DNA from: a virus
DNA: 64,000 nt
Strand: one strand, 5' to 3'
IMG/VR virus record: IMGVR_UViG_3300010412_000009
Span: 5,770-69,769 of that record
Below, in pieces: positions 464 to 64,000 of this stretch. Made by a program: the position numbers and the translations under genes. Every line of letters starts with the position of its first letter. The first letter of the stretch is position 1. Under the pieces are notes generated by a model that had not been told where the DNA came from, made no database searches, and saw only the letters and a program-made list of their open reading frames with translations.

Positions 464-2407
464 TTAGCTTTTTATAAGTTTTTCAATTTCAGTTGAGATT
501 TTATTTAAGTTTTTTGCTTTATTTAACCTATCTAAATTGTATTTTCGTCTCGTTGTTTCTAGAATTAAATTTTTTCTATCTTCTTCGGATTCAGGTGTTA
601 ATTCTTCGGTATTTTCTCCTTCACCGCCTAATTCTCCTTCACCGCCTAATTCTCCTTCACCACCAAGGTCACCACCTAATCCACCGCCTCCGCCAAATTC
701 ACCACCGCCAAATTCACCACCAAGGTCACCACCAAGGTCACCACCGCCAAATTCACCACCAAGGTCACCACCGAATCCACCGCCTCCGCCGAATCCACCG
801 CCTCCGCCAAATTCACCACCTTGTGTTTGTCCCGAAACAACACCTTTACCACCATAAATCCTATCAATGTCGTCAAATATTCCGGTACGTCCAATTACTG
901 ATGCGGTATTTTGAAGTTCGTTGGCAACTGCACGTTCAATTCTCTGTTGTTGTAAATCTAATTTAATGTCTTCATCTGACATATTTAGGAAATGTTTCTT
1001 AGCAAACGAATGTGATAAAGGTTGAATTCCTTCCACAGGTGATACAGCATCTCTATACAACATAATTTTTTCCTTCCATATGTCGTTTTTAAGAATCTCA
1101 GCTTGACTAGATGGGTTTGTTAATGTTAAAACAAAGTTATCCAACTCATCTTCGAATCCCAACAAGAACAAATGAATAATTGCTATTTTATTCAATTCCT
1201 GTAACATACTCTTCTGAATTCGATTGATAGTTCTCGCAAATCTAACGTCCTGTTGTGCCAAATTTTTACCATCACCAACACTTTCTTCCCAACCCAAATA
1301 AGGCTTAGGGATTCTAAGTGCAGTCAATAACTTCTTTTGAATATATTCAATATCGGCAATTTCGGACAAGTTACTAGCCCCTGGTAGTGTATCTATTGGA
1401 CTTGGTGCTCCCATATCTCTAACAGGAATAAAATAATCCTGATCAACTGCCATTTGATTAAATCTTAAATCAGTATTTCCATTTTCATCGACAATTTGAT
1501 CTCGTTTGAATTTATTTGCGACTTTTTGTACGTACTGTTCAGCATCTTTATCATCCATGTTCCCAACAAAGACTTTAAAAATACGTCTTTCAGGTGCTCT
1601 TGATGTACGATAGATTAACATTGCATCTTCTGCAAGTACTAATTGCTTCCATATTCTACGAACTTTTTCTAGCATTGAAGTACCGTATGGTAGTCGTCTA
1701 TCATCACCTAAAAGCCTAAAATGGGCAATTTCCCAAGTTTTAAAAGTCATATTTCTAGACTTCCAATTAAAATGCATTACATCAATATCCTGAGTCCCGC
1801 TAGCGGTCTTATCTGTCTTCATACCAGCCTCAACTCTTTCAATCTCAACTACGGGTAATTGTAAACATCCTGTAACACCATTCTTCTCATCTAATTTTAG
1901 AAACACAAAATTATCCCCATATTTGCAAGTATTTCTTACCCACATAGGTAAATTGGTATTAATATCTAACGCATTGTTAAATAAATCAGCCAAAATAGAT
2001 TTGATTCTTTTTGATTCCGAATATATTTGTAATATATGTCCATTATCATCAGCAGTAGTACTTTCTTCTGAATAGATATCTAAAGCCGCCCCTATTTCAG
2101 GAAAGTATTCCATCGACTCATAATCATAAAACGCAGCCAATCTATTCGGTTCATAATAAACCCCTTGTCCATACAAATTGGTCTCAACTTTAACCCATTG
2201 TTGAGCCATATAATGCGTTTGTTGGGCTTGTAATAACGCAAGTTCATATTCTTGCTTACTTCGTGTCTTTAAAATAACCTCTTTATCAAATGTCTTAAAC
2301 GTTGGGTATTCATCTCCAAGTTGAGAATTTGGACCAAACACACCTGACAATTTTTGCCATATTGTAAGCGGAGCCTGTTGATTATTATTCTGATTATTAT
2401 TTTCCAT
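464..2407 (-). CDS. portal protein, T4 gp20-like, with Gly/acidic low-complexity C-terminal tail
   Basis: motifs LAEDAMLIYRTSRAPERRIFKVFVGNM, DYFIPVR, IDTLPG, ALRIPK typical of gp20 portals; next to terminase. Confidence 0.92.
   Translation of the reverse strand: MENNNQNNNQQAPLTIWQKLSGVFGPNSQLGDEYPTFKTFDKEVILKTRSKQEYELALLQAQQTHYMAQQWVKVETNLYGQGVYYEPNRLAAFYDYESMEYFPEIGAALDIYSEESTTADDNGHILQIYSESKRIKSILADLFNNALDINTNLPMWVRNTCKYGDNFVFLKLDEKNGVTGCLQLPVVEIERVEAGMKTDKTASGTQDIDVMHFNWKSRNMTFKTWEIAHFRLLGDDRRLPYGTSMLEKVRRIWKQLVLAEDAMLIYRTSRAPERRIFKVFVGNMDDKDAEQYVQKVANKFKRDQIVDENGNTDLRFNQMAVDQDYFIPVRDMGAPSPIDTLPGASNLSEIADIEYIQKKLLTALRIPKPYLGWEESVGDGKNLAQQDVRFARTINRIQKSMLQELNKIAIIHLFLLGFEDELDNFVLTLTNPSSQAEILKNDIWKEKIMLYRDAVSPVEGIQPLSHSFAKKHFLNMSDEDIKLDLQQQRIERAVANELQNTASVIGRTGIFDDIDRIYGGKGVVSGQTQGGEFGGGGGFGGGGGFGGDLGGEFGGGDLGGDLGGEFGGGEFGGGGGLGGDLGGEGELGGEGELGGEGENTEELTPESEEDRKNLILETTRRKYNLDRLNKAKNLNKISTEIEKLIKS
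620..820 (-). repeat. GC-rich imperfect repeats encoding GG(E/D/G)(F/L)GG and GGEGEL units in portal tail
   Basis: repeated CCACCGCC/TCACCACC units visible in the DNA. Confidence 0.85.
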
Positions 2408-2444: not shown

Positions 2445-4208
2445 CTATTTAATTTTCCCGAATAACCATAAATAGTCTTGATAATCTTTTGGTGTCGTTG
2501 GTCTATTAACAGGTCTTCTCATATGATTTGGTACATATTGCTCAAAACTAGTTGGAGGTCTTAAATTATCATTATCATTGACTGTCCATAGATCGAGTAA
2601 TACTTTGGTTTGTTCATCAACTTTTTGTAATTTGGAGAATGAATTTTCTGCAACATAAGTTGCCATTGCCATACCCTGAATTAAATCGTCGTGATGTCCT
2701 TTTTGATGATCAGGCTTACCATTTCTATAAATAAATGTACCCATTTCATTATGAAGTCTTTGACTATATATCCTAAAACCGTTTCTAATAGCCTCCTCAA
2801 AAGATGCAATTATTTGAACCCTTTTATTGTTATATGAAATTCCGGGTATTTTATCTTGAATATTAGTATTCCACATCACGTCAACTGACTGATTATCGTA
2901 ATATAGGTTTTTATATCCTAACTCAACCAATTTTCGTGAAGTTGCAACACCCATACCACCAGTAATGTCAATAACGATAAAACAAGAATACATAGTAGCC
3001 CATTTATAGGCAATTTCTGCGATGACATCAGGGGGTACTTTGCCTAAATACTCAACAACTTGTTCTCGATTGTCAAAATCAATGATTTGAAATGTCGTAA
3101 AATCTTCACTATCTCCACGACTAACATCTATTGCCATAATGTATTTATGACCAGGAACGGGATCTTTCCAAATCCAAAGAGCATTTCCCATTAGTTTTGC
3201 TTCTGGTTCACATAACATTGTTTTATTAATTTCCTCCAATAATTTGGCATCAAAAACGTTATCACCTGATCCAATAAATGATGATTCTATCTCTTGAGCA
3301 ACTTTTCTCTTATCATATTTTAATTTTTTAACCATATTTTCAAACCAAGTTGAATATGGTGAGTACCCATCATCTATAAGTTTTTTAATCTGAGAAAAAT
3401 CCCTTTCTTCGTACTCTACATGACTAAAATCAATTATATCATATTTACTATCGTCATTAGTATGATGTTCTCTTATGAATTTAATAATATCGTCAGTTTT
3501 CACCATTTTTAAATCTGATGAATATCTAGGATCTTTCCACCATATCAATTCTGTAATCTTAAATTCATTCATATTACGAATTGCCTGGTTATATATCGTA
3601 TAGTATATTGGATCATAACCGTTAGGTGTTGAAATCACAATGATTTTACCTCCCGTAGATAATGACGCCATACAAGCAGCCCAAAAATCATCATCCGCCT
3701 CAATAAACGCCGCTTCATCCATAATAAGAACAGTCGGGGTAAACCCTCTTAACGCGTCTTTAGATGTTGCAACCGCCTTTACTTCTGAATTATTGTGCTT
3801 TAATTTGTAATGCTTTTGAGAGTTCTTCTTATCGTCAAATTCAACACCTAACCAATCAGGCCATTGTCTTGTGAATTCTTTGATTTTGTTCGCCATTTCA
3901 ATTGAAGTGTCCAATTTATTGGCAATTATCAAAATCTTTTCAGGTGATGTTGAACGAGCAAATGATATTTTTTTGGACGCCCAAGCTGCGGTTACCGTTG
4001 AAACACCAGCCTGTCTATATTTCTTAGCGATGTTTTCTTCATACTTTTCGTAATTACTAACTAATTCGATTTGGTCAGGAAATAATTTAAATGGGACATA
4101 CTGTGATATTGTATTATCGTAAGTCTGTAGATAGGTTTCTATTGCGTATATTGAACTTTTTTGACATTTAGCATACTCTAAAAGTATGCGCTCTTTCATG
4201 TTGTTCAT
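2445..4208 (-). CDS. terL: terminase large subunit (T4 gp17-like)
   Basis: Walker A KYRQAGVST, Walker B LIMDEAAFI, ISTPNG motif, nuclease MAIDVSRG and HDDL. Confidence 0.93.
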   Translation of the reverse strand: MNNMKERILLEYAKCQKSSIYAIETYLQTYDNTISQYVPFKLFPDQIELVSNYEKYEENIAKKYRQAGVSTVTAAWASKKISFARSTSPEKILIIANKLDTSIEMANKIKEFTRQWPDWLGVEFDDKKNSQKHYKLKHNNSEVKAVATSKDALRGFTPTVLIMDEAAFIEADDDFWAACMASLSTGGKIIVISTPNGYDPIYYTIYNQAIRNMNEFKITELIWWKDPRYSSDLKMVKTDDIIKFIREHHTNDDSKYDIIDFSHVEYEERDFSQIKKLIDDGYSPYSTWFENMVKKLKYDKRKVAQEIESSFIGSGDNVFDAKLLEEINKTMLCEPEAKLMGNALWIWKDPVPGHKYIMAIDVSRGDSEDFTTFQIIDFDNREQVVEYLGKVPPDVIAEIAYKWATMYSCFIVIDITGGMGVATSRKLVELGYKNLYYDNQSVDVMWNTNIQDKIPGISYNNKRVQIIASFEEAIRNGFRIYSQRLHNEMGTFIYRNGKPDHQKGHHDDLIQGMAMATYVAENSFSKLQKVDEQTKVLLDLWTVNDNDNLRPPTSFEQYVPNHMRRPVNRPTTPKDYQDYLWLFGKIK

Positions 4209-13932: not shown

Positions 13933-14357
13933 GGGCCTAAATGGAATCGACGTGGTATTGATGTAATTAAGGCAGCTCGCAGTGTAATTCTATCCTGCGT
14001 TAAAAAGGAGAATTAATCAATAAGTGGCAATATCGCTTCTTCTTTGGCAATCGAGGCTGTTTTAAACAGTGACGTAAATGGTGGTCGTGCTATCAGCATG
14101 GTTTCCGAGCCAGTGGCTTTTGCAGAGGCTATTTAATCAAAATCTGCAGACTGACCTACCATGTGTAGGAACAGTAACGAATCCGTGAAAGCGGATTCTG
14201 ATCCGGCCTTTACCTATGGTAAGGGACTAACAAAGGCTTTCTTCGTAGTGCCAGTAAACAACGAAGTGGTGGAGTTGTCGGGATTCAATCCCAAATGGCT
14301 GTAATTCCTTAATTGCTGATTTATTTACGGACGTGGGTTCGATACCCACTAGGTCCA
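13933..14357 (+). ncRNA. ssrA: tmRNA
   Basis: 5' GGGCCTAAATGGAATCGAC; 3' T-arm GTGGG-TTCGATA-CCCAC and TAGGTCCA; acceptor with G3:U70; resume ATAAGT-GGC, tag ORF 14026-14136. Confidence 0.92.
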
Positions 14358-14360
14358 CTA

Positions 14361-37342: not shown

Positions 37343-37759
37343 TTACAATAATAAATTCTTATTATCCAATGTCTCAAAATAGAATACACCTGAAAATGGC
37401 TTATCTTCCGTTATATCAAAATATTCCGCTATTTTTAATAAATATTGTTTTCTCTTTATTGATGTTTCAACTTTCGGATTTTTAGGTAGTTTCTTTAATC
37501 TTTCATGTAAACCACCTAAAAACCAATCACGAAATGTCTCCAAGGGTAACCCACCTTTATAATGGTTAATTAATCTTTGGGCTGGCATCAAATTATTAAT
37601 ATGATTCATTTCCAACAAATTAAGTTGATAACTTCTAACTTCAAATTCTATTTTTGGGATTAAATGATCAACTTGCCAATCATCCTCTAATAACGTTCCT
37701 GAATATGCACATCTCCCATCAAACTTATTATATACTAAATCCCTATCAATTTTCTTCAT
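37343..37759 (-). CDS. HNH endonuclease-like protein
   Basis: GRCAYSG...QVDHLIP...NL.PA...N.YK; start chosen at MKKID. Confidence 0.75.
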   Translation of the reverse strand: MKKIDRDLVYNKFDGRCAYSGTLLEDDWQVDHLIPKIEFEVRSYQLNLLEMNHINNLMPAQRLINHYKGGLPLETFRDWFLGGLHERLKKLPKNPKVETSIKRKQYLLKIAEYFDITEDKPFSGVFYFETLDNKNLLL

Positions 37760-38318
37760 AATATAAATCAAGAACAGATTTATTGAGAATGTCAATACAT
37801 TTGTTGGCAATTTCTTTCGTCAAACCAAATTTTCTACTAACCAAAATGAAATGTTCTCTTTGTCCATACAACATATCACTATCATCATCAAGAATAACAT
37901 AGTTTTCAACATCAGATTTATCTATCCATTCCTTTTGCCGATCCTTAGACCAATTAATTCTCTGAAAACCTTTATCCTTTAACCAATGTTTAATTTCAAC
38001 ACCTCTATCTATTACATAAGTACTATCGTTATGCTTATAAATAATTCTAGGCGTTTTATCTATCACTTCACCGACAAACCCACATTCTTTTAAGATATTA
38101 CCCAATTCTTCAGTTGTATGTCCAAGTCTCCACGTTGACGATACCACAACTTTAGCCCCTGTCTCACGAATGATATAATTTAAATTCTCGACAGATTCAG
38201 GATCTATATCACTTTCTGTACTAGCCTCACATTCACCACTCTTTATACTTTTATACCGCCTCTCATACCAATTTTCGTGATTTAAAACGCCATCAAAATC
38301 TAAAAATATTACTTTCAT
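37746..38318 (-). CDS. HAD phosphatase, paralogue of 33253..33840
   Basis: MKVIFLDFDGV, VVSSTWR, ILDDD. Confidence 0.8.
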   Translation of the reverse strand: MKVIFLDFDGVLNHENWYERRYKSIKSGECEASTESDIDPESVENLNYIIRETGAKVVVSSTWRLGHTTEELGNILKECGFVGEVIDKTPRIIYKHNDSTYVIDRGVEIKHWLKDKGFQRINWSKDRQKEWIDKSDVENYVILDDDSDMLYGQREHFILVSRKFGLTKEIANKCIDILNKSVLDLYYEEN

Positions 38319-39756: not shown

Positions 39757-40812
39757 CTATTCTCCACCTTCAATTAAAAATTTATTTGAAATAACCTTAA
39801 AACTAATACTGTTATCTCGACTTCTAACAACAATACCCTCCCTTTCTTTATTCGGATTTAATTGAGACTTACCCTCAGCGAATGATAAGATTTCATCAAT
39901 CGCTTTAGGTAATTCAAATTCACCTGATTGAAAAAGAACTGGAACTGTCTCAAGTTTAAGTTCATCTCTTACGATCTTAATAAATTTGTCATACTTAACT
40001 TTTGTTTGAGTGTCAATATCAAACAAGTTGAAAATTCTGACAGTTTGTCCTTTAATCTTATATGGATTACCTTGAATACCCTCACCAATAAGTTCACCTT
40101 GAACTGCAACATTAAAATTCAAAGATGCTAATTTATCCTTAAGGTTTAATTGTTTCGCGACAGACCAAAAAGAGTTTGTATCTTCTTCAAGAAGTTCCAA
40201 ATTTCGAGAGCATACACCAAACTCACCATTATTGTAATAATAAGTCGCAGATGTACCATCCAGTTTTTCAGTCACATAAAACTCAAATGGAATTGACGTA
40301 TTTACCCATTCTTTATATTCCTCAACAAGATTCTGAACTCTTTCTTCATCTGTTTTTGGAATAAATGACGGAAACCATCCCTTAATTTTTCCAGACAACT
40401 GAGCAGGAATTGGTTTTTCATATTTGATAATTCCCAACATATCGGTAACGTCCAAACCTTCAAACCAATCCATTGTCAAATTATTCGTTTTCCTCTCGTA
40501 GATAGAATATCCATCTTTAAGAGGAATAATCAATCCTTGACTAATCTGACCTCTCAATCTAATAGTCTTCAATCTAAAGCCCTCAGTTCCATCTGCTAGT
40601 TTAATATACGATGTTTTTCTCAGGAACTCAAATTCAGGTTCAATCGGAAGAAGACTATCAATCTCACAATAAACAACCAAATCGCCCACTTTATGTCCAA
40701 CATTTTTTGCAACAACAACTTTCCACCCATCAACAGTAGCCACTTCAATCATATCCGCATTTGGAATAGGTTGAATATCTTTAATTCTTCTAATTTTTGC
40801 TAATTCTCTCAT
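39757..40812 (-). CDS. RNA ligase, DRB0094-like family
   Basis: N-terminal OB-like IPNAD.IE...GW.VV, PKTDEERVQN, TEKLDGTS, QGELIG.GIQGN, EGIV, FKVISNKFL. Confidence 0.85.
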   Translation of the reverse strand: MRELAKIRRIKDIQPIPNADMIEVATVDGWKVVVAKNVGHKVGDLVVYCEIDSLLPIEPEFEFLRKTSYIKLADGTEGFRLKTIRLRGQISQGLIIPLKDGYSIYERKTNNLTMDWFEGLDVTDMLGIIKYEKPIPAQLSGKIKGWFPSFIPKTDEERVQNLVEEYKEWVNTSIPFEFYVTEKLDGTSATYYYNNGEFGVCSRNLELLEEDTNSFWSVAKQLNLKDKLASLNFNVAVQGELIGEGIQGNPYKIKGQTVRIFNLFDIDTQTKVKYDKFIKIVRDELKLETVPVLFQSGEFELPKAIDEILSFAEGKSQLNPNKEREGIVVRSRDNSISFKVISNKFLIEGGE

Positions 40813-45999: not shown

Positions 46000-46090
46000 T
46001 TCCCCCGGTGAGACTCGAACTCACATCCAATACGTTAAAAGCGTATGGCTTGTTCCCTTTCGGTACTAATTCCAATTCAGCTACGGAGGA
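46000..46090 (-). tRNA. tRNA-Lys(TTT) with enlarged D-loop (91 nt)
   Basis: acceptor TCCTCCG/CGGGGGA, anticodon ATACG-CTTTTAA-CGTAT, normal T arm; 28 nt between D-stem strands including CC-GAAA-GG. Confidence 0.8.
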
Positions 46091-48136: not shown

Positions 48137-48874
48137 TTATTGATTTTGAATTTCATTCCATCTAACTTTTAACAAATCAAAATACACATCTTCGGGGCAT
48201 CCGTAAGGTCCGATAGCCCACATATCATTTAACTCTACTACTTCACAGTTACCATTTGATAAAACGGCAATATCAATAGTGTAAGAATGTGGTAAATGTA
48301 GACTATTTGTAATTACTTTTGTCATTACATAATTAATGAATGATGGATTGGGTAATTCCTGATAATCTCCACCATATATTGAAATGTTTACCAAATCAAC
48401 CCCTTTAATGAACATTCTCCATTCACTAACAATTTCGTGCTTGAATGGTTTTGAACATAAAAGTGGCCCATACCAATCATCAAGTTCAGGATATAAATCC
48501 CAATCACTTTTTTTTGTGGATACAAATCCTGTGAATTTCTTAACATCTCTTAAAGGTTTGACGAAGACAGGTGATGAATAATCAAGATTTCTCAAATCTT
48601 CAACAACCCAAGTATCTCTACCGAATATTGACATATACTTACCAATATGTAATGGCATTGGTTTTTCAATTCCATACAGATCAAAAAAATATTCCATATA
48701 CTCAACAGATCCTATTGGCATCGGTCTTTCTTCAATCAATCTATCTCTCACAATCGCAGCCTTAGATAATGACATTTTCTCAACATCATGACCAGCATTA
48801 GTAGCTCCAATCCAACCTTTAAAACAATAGTCAGATATTATTTCATTACCAAGAGATTCAACAACAACTTTCAT
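48137..48874 (-). CDS. ATP-grasp protein (DUF4343/R2K-like)
   Basis: PVFVKP...K.FTG, SEWR.FI, YTIDIA, VVELND. Confidence 0.72.
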   Translation of the reverse strand: MKVVVESLGNEIISDYCFKGWIGATNAGHDVEKMSLSKAAIVRDRLIEERPMPIGSVEYMEYFFDLYGIEKPMPLHIGKYMSIFGRDTWVVEDLRNLDYSSPVFVKPLRDVKKFTGFVSTKKSDWDLYPELDDWYGPLLCSKPFKHEIVSEWRMFIKGVDLVNISIYGGDYQELPNPSFINYVMTKVITNSLHLPHSYTIDIAVLSNGNCEVVELNDMWAIGPYGCPEDVYFDLLKVRWNEIQNQ

Positions 48875-48890
48875 TATTTATCAATTTTTA

Positions 48891-49166
48891 TTAAAATTCA
48901 AAATCAATATGATTATGTTCATCACAATCAAAAAAATCACCTTCACCTCTAACAAATGGAATCCATTTACCCATACCATCCTCATCTTCAACCATAACCA
49001 TAATTTCACCTTTATTATTTTTACCAATAGAAGACAATCCACACCCTTCACAAAGATACGGACCAATTTGAAATCCGGGTTCCAATTCAGATGCAATCTC
49101 TTCTATATCAAAATCAGGTTTACAGAAACCCAACTCAAGTGCACAATTTGTACAAAATTCTGCCAT
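48891..49166 (-). CDS. small Cys-containing hypothetical protein
   Basis: FCTNC and LCEGCG motifs. Confidence 0.55.
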   Translation of the reverse strand: MAEFCTNCALELGFCKPDFDIEEIASELEPGFQIGPYLCEGCGLSSIGKNNKGEIMVMVEDEDGMGKWIPFVRGEGDFFDCDEHNHIDFEF

Positions 49167-49690
49167 TACACTAATTTTATTTTAAGTTTATATTCATCTC
49201 TCAACCGAAGTATCACTTCCGCATTCCCTTTAGCGTCATCAAGTGGGTGATGAGTATGTTTGGTTATTCTTAGATATTTCCACTGTGCTCGTGTATCACC
49301 CTTAATTCCTGCAAACATATCACCAATTCGTCTAGATGACCATCCAAATGGATTCGACCCAACAAACTTATGAAAATAATATGACATAAACATACCATCG
49401 AACTGATTATTGTCAGATATTAATATCGGTTTATTAACACAAACATTTTTTATCCAATCATTAAATTCTTTCATAACCTCTTGAGGATCCCTACCATTCA
49501 ACATATCCTCTCTTCCATAACCAGAAACCGCCAAAGAATCTGGTATCCAATCATCTGAAATTGGTTTCATCACACCACTATAATAAGTGTCTTCCAACCC
49601 ATCTCTAACAACCACCGCACCAAAATTAACCATTGAGTATAACCCTGGTACTGGCCCATCGGATTCCACATCTACAACTATAAAACTCAT
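49166..49690 (-). CDS. DEDDh 3'-5' exonuclease (Rv2179c-like)
   Basis: VDVESDG, FD, HHPLDDA; start chosen at MSFIV. Confidence 0.8.
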   Translation of the reverse strand: MSFIVVDVESDGPVPGLYSMVNFGAVVVRDGLEDTYYSGVMKPISDDWIPDSLAVSGYGREDMLNGRDPQEVMKEFNDWIKNVCVNKPILISDNNQFDGMFMSYYFHKFVGSNPFGWSSRRIGDMFAGIKGDTRAQWKYLRITKHTHHPLDDAKGNAEVILRLRDEYKLKIKLV

Positions 49691-49694
49691 TTTA

Positions 49695-50030
49695 CTATAT
49701 TTCTTTTTTAATTTTATTAATAGCATCAATATCGTAATCAATATACTTATTCACCTCAACCACTATCCACGCAATTAAAGTCGAGTACTTAACTCTATCC
49801 AAAAGAATCGCATCATTATCTTTCCACCAACCTGCAAATAATCCAAATGCGCCATTTTCAAAATTATTAGATTGTGGAGGTAATGTAAATCTTCGTATTT
49901 GTTTAGACTCATTCACTGTGAAACGGTCAATCTCATCCTTAGTGAAATATTGATCCATAACATAATCAGGGACTCTAATTTTTAATTCAATCGTCCCACC
50001 ATCTCTATATCTTTCAAAATTATAGCTCAT
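49695..50030 (-). CDS. hypothetical protein
   Basis: ORF. Confidence 0.55.
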   Translation of the reverse strand: MSYNFERYRDGGTIELKIRVPDYVMDQYFTKDEIDRFTVNESKQIRRFTLPPQSNNFENGAFGLFAGWWKDNDAILLDRVKYSTLIAWIVVEVNKYIDYDIDAINKIKKEI

Positions 50031-53983: not shown

Positions 53984-53997
53984 AATGTTTATTTTAG

Positions 53998-54071
53998 TAC
54001 CCCCATCAGGACTCGAACCTGAAACCTCGTGATTAAGAGTCACGAGCTCTAACCAATTGAGCTATGAGGGT
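53998..54071 (-). tRNA. tRNA-Lys(CTT)
   Basis: cloverleaf, loop CT-CTT-AA. Confidence 0.9.
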
Positions 54072-54933: not shown

Positions 54934-54963
54934 ATTTATTTTGTGTTTTAATAAAAAAAATTG

Positions 54964-55037
54964 TTCCCCCGCTGGGGCTCGAACCCAGGACCCCCACTTT
55001 AAAAGAGTGGTGCATCTACCAACTGAGCTACGGAGGA
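54964..55037 (-). tRNA. tRNA-Lys(TTT), canonical size
   Basis: cloverleaf, loop CT-TTT-AA; same acceptor stem as 46000..46090. Confidence 0.9.
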
Positions 55038-57795: not shown

Positions 57796-57937
57796 TGGTG
57801 TAATTAGGACTCGAACCTAAATTTTCCTCGGACATGCACCGAGACGATGTAGATTATCCTCAAGTAATAACTTTAGTGGAACGTTACTCACCTATAACTT
57901 ACTCTCATAGGACAATACCCAATTCATCTTTTACACC
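57796..57937 (-). tRNA. 142-nt tRNA-like RNA with a 75-nt structured D-loop
   Basis: acceptor GGTGTAA/TTACACC, D-stem GATG/CATC, CTCGG-TGCATGT-CCGAG, T arm TTAGG-TTCGAGT-CCTAA. Confidence 0.75.
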
Positions 57938-57950
57938 ATAAGTTAATTAG

Positions 57951-58037
57951 TGGCGAGAGGGAGATTCGAACTCCCACACCTTTCGGTTCTTGGGTTATGA
58001 GCCCAAGGAGGCATCGCCAGCAGCCTTCATTCTCGCA
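57951..58037 (-). tRNA. initiator-like tRNA-Met(CAT) with long variable arm
   Basis: 1:72 T/C mismatch, anticodon stem CTTGGG/CCCAAG with three G-C pairs, variable hairpin ACC-GAAA-GGT. Confidence 0.75.
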
Positions 58038-60547: not shown

Positions 60548-60648
60548 AAACCCCCCACCTGCCAACCAAGGAATACGCCGCGCAACGTACGTCTGTCCAA
60601 ACTGCACAATATGACAGAACTTAGGATTCGAACCTAACGGTGGAGTTT
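60548..60648 (-). ncRNA. circularly permuted tRNA-like RNA (YrlA/Y RNA-like)
   Basis: order: closing strand AAACTCCACC, T arm TTAGG-TTCGAAT-CCTAA, looped stem TCTGTC/GACAGA, hairpin TACGT/GCGTA, closing strand GGTGGGGGGTTT. Confidence 0.6.
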
Positions 60649-63611: not shown

Positions 63612-63950
63612 TAAACGCTGAGATTACACGTTATATATACCCACTTTCGTTGCATTATCCCTAAAGTGCGACCTCAAGGGTTCTCAACTTATCCACCATC
63701 CAGAGGACGGTATGAGTACACGACTGCCTGTTTTAAAGTGTGGCGTTTCACTTATCCGACTTAGCTTACTCTACCATTTGATTCCTCTCTACCTTGCGGG
63801 CAGTTCAGTTCCGCTAAGAACTTAGACTCACCTCCTGATAAAACTACTCGACCTTGCGGGTGTTGTAGTCCATGATTGTACCGAAGTACTCACAGATTAA
63901 GCCGTTTTTCAACTAAGCCGTGGGACGGACTTTGCGTTTACATAAAGTCT
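63612..63950 (-). ncRNA. compact large structured RNA, GOLLD 3'-domain-like
   Basis: closing stem TAAACGC/GCGTTTA, GCAA, GAAA and UUCG tetraloops, 3' GTAATCTCAGC, located among tRNAs. Confidence 0.6.
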
Positions 63951-63957
63951 ACTATTA

Positions 63958-64000
63958 TACATATAGTATGGGAATCGAACCCATGACACTCTGTGTGATA
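63958..64000 (-). tRNA. partial tRNA-like sequence (3' half only, identity undetermined)
   Basis: T arm ATGGG-TTCGATT-CCCAT; cut by window end. Confidence 0.55.

What the first reader, a model, noticed from the sequence alone, without database searches (positions are those of the whole stretch)
46000..46090. Second D-loop insertion: tRNA-Lys(UUU) with a GAAA mini-hairpin, next to a canonical paralogue
Seen: about 17 extra nt (containing CC-GAAA-GG) are inserted after AATTGG of the D-loop, the same site as in the 57796 RNA. A normal-sized tRNA-Lys(UUU) at 54964 has the identical acceptor stem, and a Lys(CUU) sits at 53998. Known: tRNA-Lys(UUU) is the target of PrrC-type anticodon nucleases. 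Inference: D-loop position ~20 is reused as an expansion site in this phage; the insert might block host nucleases or modification enzymes while leaving the G18G19 elbow intact.
Basis: partly seen in the sequence, partly recalled or inferred. Interest (0 to 1): 0.75.

Follow-up and report, generated by a model that had tools for sequence, protein, structure and literature searches.

The report
Phage lysine tRNA with extra D-loop hairpin
This phage gene is a real lysine tRNA carrying a small extra hairpin on its elbow, a design that recurs in dozens of unrelated uncultured phages almost only in this one tRNA type, and may shield it from bacterial enzymes that cut lysine tRNA.

Summary
Window 46000-46090 (minus strand) is a 91-nt cloverleaf with anticodon UUU, discriminator A and about 19 extra nt between D-loop positions 20 and 21. 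ARAGORN and Rfam's tRNA model both miss it.

It is not a one-off. Pattern scans of viral contigs found the same kind of insert in 29 IMG/VR contigs (23 distinct sequences with the window's, a lower bound). The insert is a 2-4 bp stem capped by a GNRA tetraloop just after G18G19. With anticodon-free patterns, every true hit was Lys(UUU).

The window's insert is more than a GAAA mini-hairpin. It reads AGUA-CC-GAAA-GG-GAAC, the sarcin-ricin (bulged-G) signature. Two other phages share this form, with a near-invariant D arm and compensatory changes in the other stems.

The host is bacterial (a tmRNA is present), so archaeal-type splicing is unlikely.

Most likely the hairpin stays in the mature tRNA, giving a spare Lys(UUU) decoder that lysine-tRNA-cutting defence nucleases recognise poorly. 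That role is inferred; there is no expression or charging data.

Earlier notes of this scan describe other phage tRNAs rebuilt with extra hairpins on other DNA. Eight literature searches found no paper describing this D-loop class.

The parts
46000..46090 (-). tRNA-Lys(UUU) gene with expanded D-loop: 90-nt body plus discriminator A at 46000; no encoded CCA
   Evidence: Sequence. T-arm/acceptor scan. Compensatory changes in the three-sequence alignment A3. Not called by ARAGORN or by Rfam at E<=1.
46052..46070 (-). Insert between D-loop positions 20 and 21 (tRNA nt 21-39). Core 46052-46067 reads AGUA-CC-GAAA-GG-GAAC, a sarcin-ricin-like (bulged-G) hairpin with a GNRA cap; GAAA loop at 46058-46061
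   Evidence: Pattern AGTACNGNRANGGAAC: 1 match in the window, 0.01 expected. The same core is in L142 and L394, differing only by C-G to U.G and GAAA to GUAA. RNAfold predicts the CC/GG pairs. The rRNA counterpart AGTACGAGAGGACC lies in 23S rRNA genes.
46072..46073 (-). G18 G19 of the D-loop, left unpaired; partners for U55/C56 of the T-loop UUCGAGU
   Evidence: Read from the sequence. Invariant in A1 and A3. The tertiary contact itself is inferred from general tRNA knowledge.
46030..46046 (-). Anticodon arm AUACG-CUUUUAA-CGUAU; anticodon UUU at 46037-46039
   Evidence: Sequence. 4 of 5 stem pairs show changes on both sides among the three subtype members.
46008..46024 (-). T arm GUGAG-UUCGAGU-CUCAC
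54963..55037 (-). Normal-size paralogue tRNA-Lys(UUU) with the identical acceptor stem UCCUCCG/CGGGGGA
   Evidence: ARAGORN. Rfam RF00005 at 55.7 bits. Sequence.
53997..54071 (-). tRNA-Lys(CUU)
   Evidence: ARAGORN. Rfam at 69.6 bits.
57797..57937 (-). Second tRNA-shaped gene of this phage, expanded at the same D-loop site (AAUUGG followed by about 70 nt). Its anticodon loop UGCAUGU lacks U33
   Evidence: Fold has z = -2.89. Followed up separately in this scan (e1-6177295).

Best explanation
Window 46000-46090 (minus strand) encodes a genuine phage tRNA-Lys(UUU) isodecoder. It has a hairpin of about 19 nt inserted between D-loop positions 20 and 21, the naturally variable, solvent-facing part of the D-loop.

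Shown:
- It has the cloverleaf, U8/A14, G18G19, a standard T-loop, the ordinary Lys anticodon loop CUUUUAA and discriminator A73.
- Its helices co-vary with two relatives.
- It belongs to a class of phage Lys(UUU) genes with a GNRA-capped hairpin at this site.
- The window's hairpin has the AGUA...GAA sarcin-ricin (bulged-G) signature.

Inferred:
- The gene is transcribed with its neighbours and cut out by the host's RNase P and 3' processing.
- The hairpin is not removed. The host is bacterial, no BHB motif can form, and the insert is far too small to self-splice.
- It stays as a rigid knob beside nucleotides 16, 17 and 20 at the outer corner of the L.
- LysRS, which reads the anticodon and A73 (recalled), still charges it, and it decodes AAA/AAG.
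- The knob denies access to host defence nucleases that must grip the D-loop/elbow of tRNA-Lys(UUU) while cutting the anticodon arm (AriB-like). The phage therefore keeps a Lys decoder when the host's, or its own plain copy, is destroyed.

I put about 0.9 on 'real tRNA-Lys gene of a conserved D-insert class', about 0.6 on 'hairpin retained and tRNA used in translation', and about 0.4-0.45 on the nuclease-shield role.
For: (1) Anatomy and covariation. 22 pairs are 98.5% paired in window/L142/L394. 8 pairs changed on both sides, with 0 of 500 shuffles as high, and slid controls collapse to 35-48% paired.

(2) The insert is conserved while helices drift. D arm plus insert is 32 of 35 identical between window and L142, against 19 of 34 in the helices, by approximate region bounds. 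Among the three, only the N of GNRA and one C-G to U.G change.

(3) Class size. 29 IMG/VR contigs plus the window carry the insert: 23 distinct sequences in the hand tally, 22 of which, two of them from MAGs labelled bacterial, are tabulated (89/90).
- 19 of 22 tabulated members have a stem of at least 2 bp closing a GNRA loop. Shuffled inserts give a mean of 0.8 and a maximum of 5 in 2000 shuffles.
- By my reading of the and 67 sequences, at least 10 different complementary stems occur: CC/GG, CU/GG, GCG/CGC, GAUG/CAUC, GGA/UCC, GGC/GCC, GAC/GUC, GUC/GAC, GC/GC, UC/GA.

(4) Isoacceptor specificity.
- The anticodon-free pattern TAGCTCAGTTGGTT..GNRA..TAGAGC gave 13 of 13 stretches as Lys(UUU), 8 distinct sequences.
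- The looser anticodon-free pattern gave 10 of 10 parsed, plus 2 read by eye.
- Only 8 of 96 normal tRNAs with the same D-arm motif are Lys(UUU).

(5) It looks functional.
- All 22 have discriminator A.
- In L107 (38 tRNAs) and L071 (37 tRNAs), the D-insert gene is the only Lys(UUU) in a near-complete set.
- Rfam's tRNA model scores 6 of 15 relatives full-length at 56-67 bits.

(6) Spare-copy layout. All 3 sarcin-ricin-type genes share a contig with a plain Lys(UUU) and a Lys(CUU). In L142 and L394 the plain Lys(UUU) lies directly beside the D-insert gene; Lys(CUU) is adjacent in L394 and about 2.7 kb away in L142.

(7) Conflict context.
- Among the window's tRNA genes lie an RNA ligase (PF09414), a HAD_SAK_2 'RNA repair' domain protein, an R2K ATP-grasp protein and an RNase T-like exonuclease.
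- In L311 the D-insert gene lies about 220 nt from a T4 Rnl1-family ligase.
- Published: AriB cuts E. coli tRNA-Lys at 40/41 and T5's own tRNA-Lys resists it. An AlphaFold 3 model puts AriB's second site on D-loop U16-U17, and U16->C impairs cleavage. RorSlfn5 prefers tRNA-Lys(UUU).

(8) Not a host feature. The pattern was found in 0 of 400 and 0 of 200 other sampled genomes of two bacterial phyla.

(9) Bacterial host. tmRNA at 13933-14360, 71.3 bits.
Against: - There are no expression, processing, charging or cleavage data for any member.
- The class members are related, so the 'all Lys' counts are not independent events. A single old insertion inherited by descent would give the same tally.
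- The insert is not strictly Lys-only. L197 has a tRNA-Gly(UCC) with GGG-GAAA-CCC at the same site. The window's own CAU-type RNA at 57797 is expanded there too.
- RNA-repair genes are not enriched near other members. tblastn with four such proteins against 261 loci (258 viral loci plus L311, L334 and L313) hit no other member locus.
- U16 and U17, the bases AriB is modelled to read, are kept in most members.
- A knob at the elbow might clash with the ribosome (L1 stalk, uL5, A-site finger). This is untested.
- The window's helix has only two Watson-Crick pairs, and its fold energy is not better than shuffles (z = -1.17).
- One member, L182, has a flawed acceptor stem by my reading of the sequence, and may be decaying.
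Confidence: 0.45

Rival explanations
1. Non-decoding decoy. The RNA is made and keeps the insert, but works as a tRNA-shaped sponge rather than in translation. It would soak up a tRNA-Lys-directed nuclease. Alternatively, through its sarcin-ricin-like hairpin, it would soak up a toxin or factor that recognises the 23S sarcin-ricin loop.
For: - The insert copies the AGUA...GAAC signature of the 23S loop.
- VapC-type toxins cut either tRNA anticodon loops or that rRNA loop, which is described as mimicking an anticodon stem-loop (review passage).
- The same phage has other tRNA-shaped RNAs that can hardly decode, such as 57797-57937 without U33.
- Plain Lys(UUU) copies sit beside the sarcin-ricin-type genes.
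Against: - A decoy does not need A73, a perfect 7-nt Lys anticodon loop, or co-varying acceptor and T stems, yet all are kept.
- In L107 and L071 the D-insert gene is the only Lys(UUU) of a near-complete tRNA set.
- The loop is GAAA/GUAA rather than the GAGA of the rRNA loop, and the helix is one pair longer.
Confidence: 0.17
2. Structural or recognition module unrelated to defence. The hairpin would stiffen the elbow of a hastily made, under-modified phage tRNA. Or it would be the handle for a phage protein (repair ligase, modification enzyme or processing factor) that tells phage tRNA-Lys from host tRNA-Lys.
For: - GNRA loops and bulged-G motifs are classic tertiary-contact and protein-binding modules (general knowledge, recalled).
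- The sequence of the sarcin-ricin-type insert is conserved, not just its pairing. That suits a specific partner.
- RNA ligase genes lie nearby in the window and in L311.
Against: - There is no conserved neighbouring protein across members.
- The mini-hairpin members vary freely in stem sequence. That argues against a sequence-specific partner for the class as a whole.
- It does not explain why Lys(UUU) in particular carries the insert.
Confidence: 0.18
3. Intervening sequence removed after transcription, that is, an intron-like element. The D-loop inserts found in archaeal tRNA-Lys(UUU) genes are probably of this kind.
For: - About 110 of the first 120 cellular hits to the D-insert Lys(UUU) pattern are archaeal genes with 8-30 nt hairpins at the same site, often with further introns.
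- A 2026 preprint reports hidden Asgard tRNA introns that appear as an 'enlarged D-loop' (passage).
Against: - The window phage and L170 carry tmRNA, a bacterial feature.
- Bacteria have no known BHB-splicing endonuclease (review passages).
- A 2-4 bp stem plus tetraloop cannot form two 3-nt bulges separated by 4 bp.
- Bacterial and phage tRNA introns are large self-splicing group I elements in the anticodon loop (recalled).
- Rfam's tRNA model accepts several members full-length as simple D-loop insertions.
Confidence: 0.08
4. Decaying duplicate: a pseudogene of the plain Lys(UUU) gene that picked up junk in its D-loop.
For: - Standard finders reject it.
- D stem of only 3 pairs with a G.A mismatch.
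- A plain paralogue exists.
- One class member, L182, has a flawed acceptor stem (my reading of the sequence).
Against: - Compensatory changes occur in three helices.
- The insert is near-invariant across phages of 70, 128 and 362 kb.
- The gene is tightly packed between ORFs.
- An identical copy is present in a metagenome of another study.
- The design recurs in 29 contigs.
Confidence: 0.04

Closest known systems
Nuclease-resistant phage tRNA-Lys(UUU) of phage T5, which neutralises PARIS/AriB (PMC11464382, PMC12409363; passages read)
   Same: A phage-encoded extra Lys(UUU) decoder that differs from the cellular tRNA at places a defence nuclease reads. The D-loop is one of those places (U16->C impairs AriB).
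   Different: T5 uses base substitutions in a normal-size tRNA. Here a whole hairpin is added at position 20/21. Resistance has not been tested for this gene.
Sarcin-ricin loop of 23S/28S rRNA (bulged-G motif capped by a GNRA-type loop)
   Same: The AGUAC...GGAAC signature flanks a short helix with a GNRA cap. Variation among the three phage copies falls only on the helix pair and on the N of GNRA.
   Different: One extra C-G (or U.G) pair, and GAAA/GUAA instead of GAGA. It sits in a tRNA D-loop rather than in rRNA. The three-dimensional fold is not shown.
Archaeal non-canonical tRNA introns and 'enlarged D-loop' intervening sequences (PMC4033280; bioRxiv 10.64898/2026.10.13.758758; passages read)
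   Same: Extra sequence in the D-loop of a tRNA gene. My scan shows many archaeal Lys(UUU) genes interrupted at the very same site.
   Different: Those are cut out by the BHB endonuclease. The phage host is bacterial, the inserts are tiny GNRA hairpins with no BHB, and removal is unlikely.
Phage tRNAs with an added long variable arm (earlier notes of this scan: e1-175791, e1-2012544, e1-249385, e1-5790495), and L002's long-armed Ile and Val tRNAs
   Same: Phage isodecoders that keep identity marks but gain an extra hairpin. They are often beside a plain paralogue and recur in unrelated phages.
   Different: The added arm there is at the variable region. Here it is in the D-loop and is almost confined to Lys(UUU).
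Phage T4 tRNA-Lys repair by Pnkp and Rnl1 against PrrC (abstract of PMC2610378 seen in the search listing; remainder recalled)
   Same: The same conflict over tRNA-Lys(UUU). RNA ligase genes accompany the D-insert gene in the window and in L311.
   Different: Repair mends a cut tRNA, whereas the insert would prevent recognition. No Pnkp was identified here.

Membership tests
tRNA (Rfam RF00005), isoacceptor Lys(UUU) | Cloverleaf of four helices supported by covariation | tested here: met
   98.5% of cells paired, 8 pairs changed on both sides, 0 of 500 shuffles as high. Slid controls give 35-48% paired.
tRNA (Rfam RF00005), isoacceptor Lys(UUU) | Conserved tertiary nucleotides: U8, A14, G18G19, T-loop UUCRA, R15-Y48 | tested here: met
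   Read from the sequence: U8, A14, A15/U48, G18G19, UUCGAGU.
tRNA (Rfam RF00005), isoacceptor Lys(UUU) | Score at or above the family's gathering threshold | tested here: not met
   No RF00005 hit for the window gene at E<=1. Among 15 relatives: 6 full-length hits at 56-67 bits, 8 truncated hits, 1 with none.
tRNA (Rfam RF00005), isoacceptor Lys(UUU) | Lysine identity set: anticodon U34 U35 U36 and discriminator A73 (identity set recalled) | tested here: met
   Loop CUUUUAA and A73 in the window and in all 22 tabulated members. Note that CUUUUAA was part of most search patterns.
tRNA (Rfam RF00005), isoacceptor Lys(UUU) | Expressed, processed and aminoacylated | not testable with these tools
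   No RNA run was listed.
Archaeal BHB intron | Two 3-nt bulges separated by a 4-bp helix at the exon-intron borders | tested here: not met
   The insert folds as a 2-4 bp stem plus tetraloop. No second bulge or 4-bp central helix can be drawn.
Archaeal BHB intron | Host possesses the EndA splicing endonuclease (archaea or eukaryotes) | tested here: not met
   tmRNA in the window and beside the member in L170 points to bacterial hosts. EndA itself was not searched for.
Group I intron in a bacterial or phage tRNA gene | Self-splicing core of 200 nt or more, inserted in the anticodon loop | tested here: not met
   The insert is about 19 nt and lies in the D-loop. No intron family was reported in the region.
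Sarcin-ricin / bulged-G motif | AGUA on the 5' strand opposite GAA on the 3' strand, next to a Watson-Crick helix | tested here: met
   AGUA-CC-GAAA-GG-GAAC at 46052-46067. Invariant in L142 and L394.
Sarcin-ricin / bulged-G motif | Exact rRNA loop: a single C-G pair closing a GAGA tetraloop | tested here: not met
   Two pairs and a GAAA/GUAA loop, against AGTACGAGAGGACC in 23S genes.
Sarcin-ricin / bulged-G motif | S-turn fold with bulged G and cross-strand stack | not testable with these tools
   No RNA three-dimensional tool is available. Thermodynamic folding only shows the CC/GG pairs.
Nuclease-evading phage tRNA (T5 tRNA-Lys type) | Resists a defence nuclease that cuts the host counterpart, and rescues infection | not testable with these tools
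   Only context is available: papers; repair genes.

The most novel reading that the evidence does not exclude
Phages have repeatedly grafted a fifth arm onto the elbow of tRNA-Lys(UUU). In one lineage, which includes this window, that arm is a working copy of the ribosome's sarcin-ricin loop. Such a tRNA would carry on its own body the RNA element that translational GTPases and ribosome-inactivating or PIN-type toxins recognise. It could therefore act both as a lysine decoder and as bait or shield against translation-targeting defence effectors. This would be a new kind of counter-defence RNA, and the first natural five-armed elongator tRNA used on bacterial ribosomes.
Probability: 0.12. Interest if true: 0.9.

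Novelty: new variant of a known kind. Interest (0 to 1): 0.72.

Why it matters
Several bacterial defence systems stop phages by cutting tRNA-Lys(UUU), and phages answer with their own tRNAs. So far the known escapes are point changes in a normal-size tRNA.

A whole extra hairpin on the elbow, recurring in dozens of uncultured phages and almost only in Lys(UUU), would be a new structural route of escape. It would also be a natural test of how much extra RNA the synthetase, EF-Tu and the ribosome tolerate at D-loop position 20.

There is a practical side. ARAGORN missed or mis-called all 22 tabulated members (8 not called, 6 given another identity, 8 with shortened bounds). Phage tRNA inventories and codon-usage arguments therefore undercount Lys decoders.

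The sarcin-ricin-like version offers a compact, testable RNA module. The parallel inserts in archaeal Lys(UUU) genes raise the question of why this tRNA and this site are hit in two domains.

Tried and rejected
- blastn of the region and of the gene against GenBank phages found no relative of the locus; the short tRNA query matched only T-arm pieces.
- blastn with three mini-hairpin members returned only normal-size tRNAs or partial matches. This cannot show that cultured phages lack the class, because BLAST handles the gap poorly.
- The 165-aa neighbour has no relatives in viral contigs.
- My first wide pattern had a wrong second gap and returned noise.
- The looser anticodon-free pattern was swamped by ordinary tRNAs in which AGAGC recurs downstream.
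- The metagenome scan for the window subtype returned only the 362-kb contig already held as L142.
I sampled two bacterial phyla instead.
- Sequencing runs: no RNA holder was listed. Of the four DNA runs laid, only X4 covered the gene, and it was identical. X5, X13 and X14 matched only T-arm-sized pieces, so they say nothing about variants.
- Promoter and terminator scan: nothing relevant next to the gene.
- Fold energies are no better than shuffles for most members, as is usual for tRNAs.
- The MAFFT alignment A1 mis-registers the hairpins, so I did not use it for pair counts. A4 likewise.
- My longest-stem hairpin picker preferred U-A/G.U alternatives and was replaced by the GNRA-closure test.
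- tblastn for RNA-repair genes near other members was negative.
- The rRNA-loop motif was not found in two MAGs, which lack rRNA genes.
- Literature searches found no paper describing a hairpin in the D-loop of phage tRNA-Lys. The review of non-canonical tRNAs (PMC7609411) has no occurrence of 'phage'.
Full report
**What is there.**

Read on the minus strand, window 46090 to 46000 is a 91-nt cloverleaf:
- acceptor UCCUCCG/CGGGGGA
- U8 A9
- D stem GCU/AGC
- D loop AAUUGG, followed by about 19 extra nt
- anticodon stem AUACG/CGUAU with loop CUUUUAA (anticodon UUU)
- variable loop UGGAU
- T arm GUGAG-UUCGAGU-CUCAC
- discriminator A; no encoded CCA

It fills a 117-nt gap between two minus-strand ORFs. 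ARAGORN reports 18 tRNAs in the window but not this one. Rfam's tRNA model gives nothing here even at E<=1. My own scan for a T arm followed by a strand complementary to an upstream 7-mer recovered it as a 90-nt unit, together with the 141-nt RNA at 57797-57937.

The plain Lys(UUU) at 54963-55037 has the identical acceptor stem. Lys(CUU) lies at 53997-54071. The 57797 RNA is also expanded just after AAUUGG.

**The genome.**

The window is 64 kb of a single 69.8-kb virus record. It encodes:
- a T4-type portal and large terminase, a ClpB-like ATPase and ribonucleotide reductase
- a tmRNA at 13933-14360 (71.3 bits), so the host is a bacterium
- a GOLLD-like RNA at 63615-63991 (137.8 bits, below the gathering score of 150)

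Among the tRNA genes lie an RNA ligase (PF09414 with the PHA02142 OB fold), a 'Swiss Army Knife RNA repair' HAD domain protein, an R2K ATP-grasp protein and an RNase T-like exonuclease.

**Relatives and the class.**

No DNA relative exists in GenBank phages. Pattern scans of IMG/VR found many tRNA-Lys(UUU) genes with extra sequence at the same place:
- The usual layout is G18G19, one to three U, a 2-4 bp stem closed by a tetraloop, one to three more nt, then A21 and the 3' D-stem strand.
- Counting all scans, 29 IMG/VR contigs plus the window carry such a gene. That is 23 distinct sequences in my hand tally. Two more lie in MAGs labelled bacterial (L311, L334).
- Of 22 tabulated members, 19 have a stem of at least 2 bp closing a GNRA loop. 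Shuffled inserts give 0.8 on average and at most 5 in 2000 shuffles.
- By my reading of the listed sequences, the closing stems differ while staying complementary: CC/GG, CU/GG, GCG/CGC, GAUG/CAUC, GGA/UCC, GGC/GCC, GAC/GUC, GUC/GAC, GC/GC, UC/GA.
- All 22 have discriminator A.
- Larger or shifted variants exist. Inserts of about 37 nt occur in L066, L074 and L101. L127 has a hairpin before GG. L057 and L122 have 4-5 extra nt.

**Specificity for Lys(UUU).**

Most patterns contained CUUUUAA, so I ran two anticodon-free ones.
- The loose one was swamped by ordinary tRNAs. Every true D-loop hairpin in it was Lys(UUU): 10 of 10 parsed, plus 2 read by eye.
- The strict one (TAGCTCAGTTGGTT, 2-5 nt, GNRA, 2-6 nt, TAGAGC) gave 13 stretches, all Lys(UUU), with 8 distinct sequences.
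- Among normal-size tRNAs in my loci with the same D-arm motif, only 8 of 96 are Lys(UUU).

Two caveats apply. The members are kin, so this is not a count of independent events. And exceptions exist: L197 has a tRNA-Gly(UCC) with GGG-GAAA-CCC at the same site, directly upstream of its D-insert Lys gene.

**Signs of function.**

- In L107 (38 tRNAs) and L071 (37 tRNAs), near-complete sets, the D-insert gene is the only Lys(UUU) in the fetched locus.
- In 8 of 22 loci another normal-size Lys(UUU) is present.
- ARAGORN handles none of the 22 correctly: 8 are not called, 6 are given another identity and 8 are called Lys with shortened bounds.
- Rfam's model does better. Of 15 relatives it gives 6 full-length hits at 56-67 bits, 8 truncated hits and 1 with none.

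**The window's subtype.**

The window insert is longer than the common form and reads AGUA-CC-GAAA-GG-GAAC. AGUA opposite GAA beside a helix capped by a GNRA-type loop is the signature of the sarcin-ricin (bulged-G) motif.
- The generalised motif occurs once in the window against 0.01 expected.
- A viral scan for it behind TTGG returned 11 stretches. Only two are tRNAs: L142 (a 362-kb contig) and L394 (a 128-kb contig). Both are Lys(UUU).

The three genes align without gaps.
- The D arm and insert are invariant except for two linker bases, one helix pair (C-G to U.G) and the N of GNRA (GAAA to GUAA).
- The acceptor, anticodon and T stems differ by compensatory changes: 98.5% of cells paired, 8 pairs changed on both sides, 0 of 500 shuffles as high, and slid controls at 35-48%.
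- Between window and L142, the D arm plus insert is 32 of 35 identical against 19 of 34 in the helices, by approximate region bounds.
- All three share a contig with a plain Lys(UUU) and a Lys(CUU). In L142 and L394 the plain Lys(UUU) is directly adjacent to the D-insert gene; Lys(CUU) is adjacent in L394 and about 2.7 kb away in L142.
- An identical copy of the window locus sits on a contig from a run of another study (X4).

**Is it an intron?**

About 110 of 120 stretches are archaeal Lys(UUU) genes with 8-30 nt hairpins at the same D-loop site, often with further intervening sequences after nt 37 or in the T-loop. Archaeal non-canonical introns are known. A 2026 preprint notes that hidden ones appear as an enlarged D-loop.

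For the phage genes this reading is unlikely:
- The hosts are bacterial.
- A 2-4 bp stem with a tetraloop cannot form a bulge-helix-bulge.
- The insert is far too small to self-splice.

In sampled bacterial genomes the pattern was found in 0 of 400 and 0 of 200 other genomes of two phyla. It is therefore not a host tRNA trait copied by the phage.

**Likely mechanism.**

Position 20/20a/20b is the naturally variable part of the D-loop and faces outward (established tRNA knowledge, recalled). A hairpin there leaves G18G19, the anticodon loop and A73 untouched, so folding and lysine identity should survive. These steps are inferred.

Why Lys(UUU)? Three sources bear on this:
- PARIS AriB cuts E. 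coli tRNA-Lys between 40 and 41, and T5's own tRNA-Lys resists it.
- An AlphaFold 3 model places AriB's second active site on D-loop U16-U17, and U16->C impairs cleavage.
- A bacterial Schlafen nuclease prefers tRNA-Lys(UUU), and PrrC is the classical tRNA-Lys anticodon nuclease (abstract in the listing).

A knob next to nucleotides 16, 17 and 20 would plausibly deny such enzymes their grip. The RNA-repair genes in the window, and the T4 Rnl1-type ligase 220 nt from the D-insert gene in L311, fit the same conflict. However, such genes are not found near other members.

**Rivals.**

- a non-decoding decoy, attractive for the sarcin-ricin-like form because some PIN toxins cut either anticodon loops or that rRNA loop
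- a stabilising or protein-handle module
- an excised intervening sequence
- a pseudogene

The last two are poorly supported.

**Novelty.**

Eight full-text searches and a review of non-canonical tRNAs gave no description of a D-loop hairpin in phage tRNA-Lys. Supplements were closed.

Earlier notes of this scan describe other phage tRNAs rebuilt with extra hairpins, mostly long variable arms, and the sister RNA at 57797. The general theme is therefore not new to the scan. The Lys-specific D-loop class and its sarcin-ricin-like form are new. I rate it a new variant of a known kind, with interest 0.72.

Noticed in passing
L258-L377 (genome-contig loci): Many archaeal tRNA-Lys(UUU) genes carry a variable 8-30 nt hairpin in the D-loop right after G18G19. 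The lineages are Woesearchaeota, Nanoarchaeota, Methanomassiliicoccales/Thermoplasmata, MAGs labelled Methanosarcinales, Thaumarchaeota and Helarchaeota. Further inserts often lie after nt 37 or in the T-loop. This is the same site and isoacceptor as the phage class. They are probably non-canonical introns, but many do not draw as a clean BHB.
   Followed up: partly
window 39757-40812, 37746-38318, 48137-48874, 49166-49741 (all minus strand): RNA-repair-type genes lie among the tRNA genes: an RNA ligase (PF09414 with PHA02142 OB fold), HAD_SAK_2, an R2K ATP-grasp protein and an RNase T-like exonuclease.
   Followed up: partly
window 63615-63991 (-): GOLLD-like RNA at the end of the tRNA array: RF02032 at 137.8 bits, just under the gathering score of 150.
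   Followed up: no
window 13933-14360 (+): Phage-encoded tmRNA: RF00023 at 71.3 bits. ARAGORN did not report it.
   Followed up: no
window 57797-57937 (-): A tRNA-shaped RNA with about 70 extra nt in the D-loop after AAUUGG, and an anticodon loop UGCAUGU without U33. Fold z = -2.89.
   Followed up: partly
window 57952-58036 (-): An 85-nt CAU tRNA with a long variable arm and an irregular acceptor stem. Rfam scores it best as tRNA-Sec at 31 bits, below threshold.
   Followed up: no
window 60614-60640 (-): A perfect T-arm-like hairpin (UUAGG-UUCGAAU-CCUAA) in the gap between tRNA-Ser and tRNA-Asn that no finder assigns to a tRNA.
   Followed up: no
L002 509-592 and 3063-3146 (+): tRNA-Ile(GAU) and tRNA-Val(UAC) with long variable arms (84 nt), in the same contig as the D-insert Lys. 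A plain Ile(GAU) lies at 3757-3831.
   Followed up: no
L197 3603-3685 (+): tRNA-Gly(UCC) with a GGG-GAAA-CCC hairpin in its D-loop, directly upstream of the D-insert Lys(UUU) at 3694-3780. This shows the insert type is not strictly confined to Lys.
   Followed up: partly
L311 824-1960 (-): A T4 Rnl1-family RNA ligase (PF09511) lies 220 nt from a D-insert tRNA-Lys(UUU) on a 286-kb contig of a MAG labelled Bacteroidales. An InPase-domain protein is nearby.
   Followed up: partly
L236 507-544 and L255 3509-3546 (-): abiF RNA motif (RF03085, 50.1 bits) in two contigs that carry the CC-GUAA-GG type of D-insert Lys(UUU).
   Followed up: no
L313 about 1692-1790 (+): A Lys(UUU)-like gene in a MAG labelled Erysipelotrichaceae. 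It has a GC-GUAU-GC D-loop hairpin, and unrelated sequence runs on directly after the anticodon loop. This may be a large intron or a broken gene.
   Followed up: no
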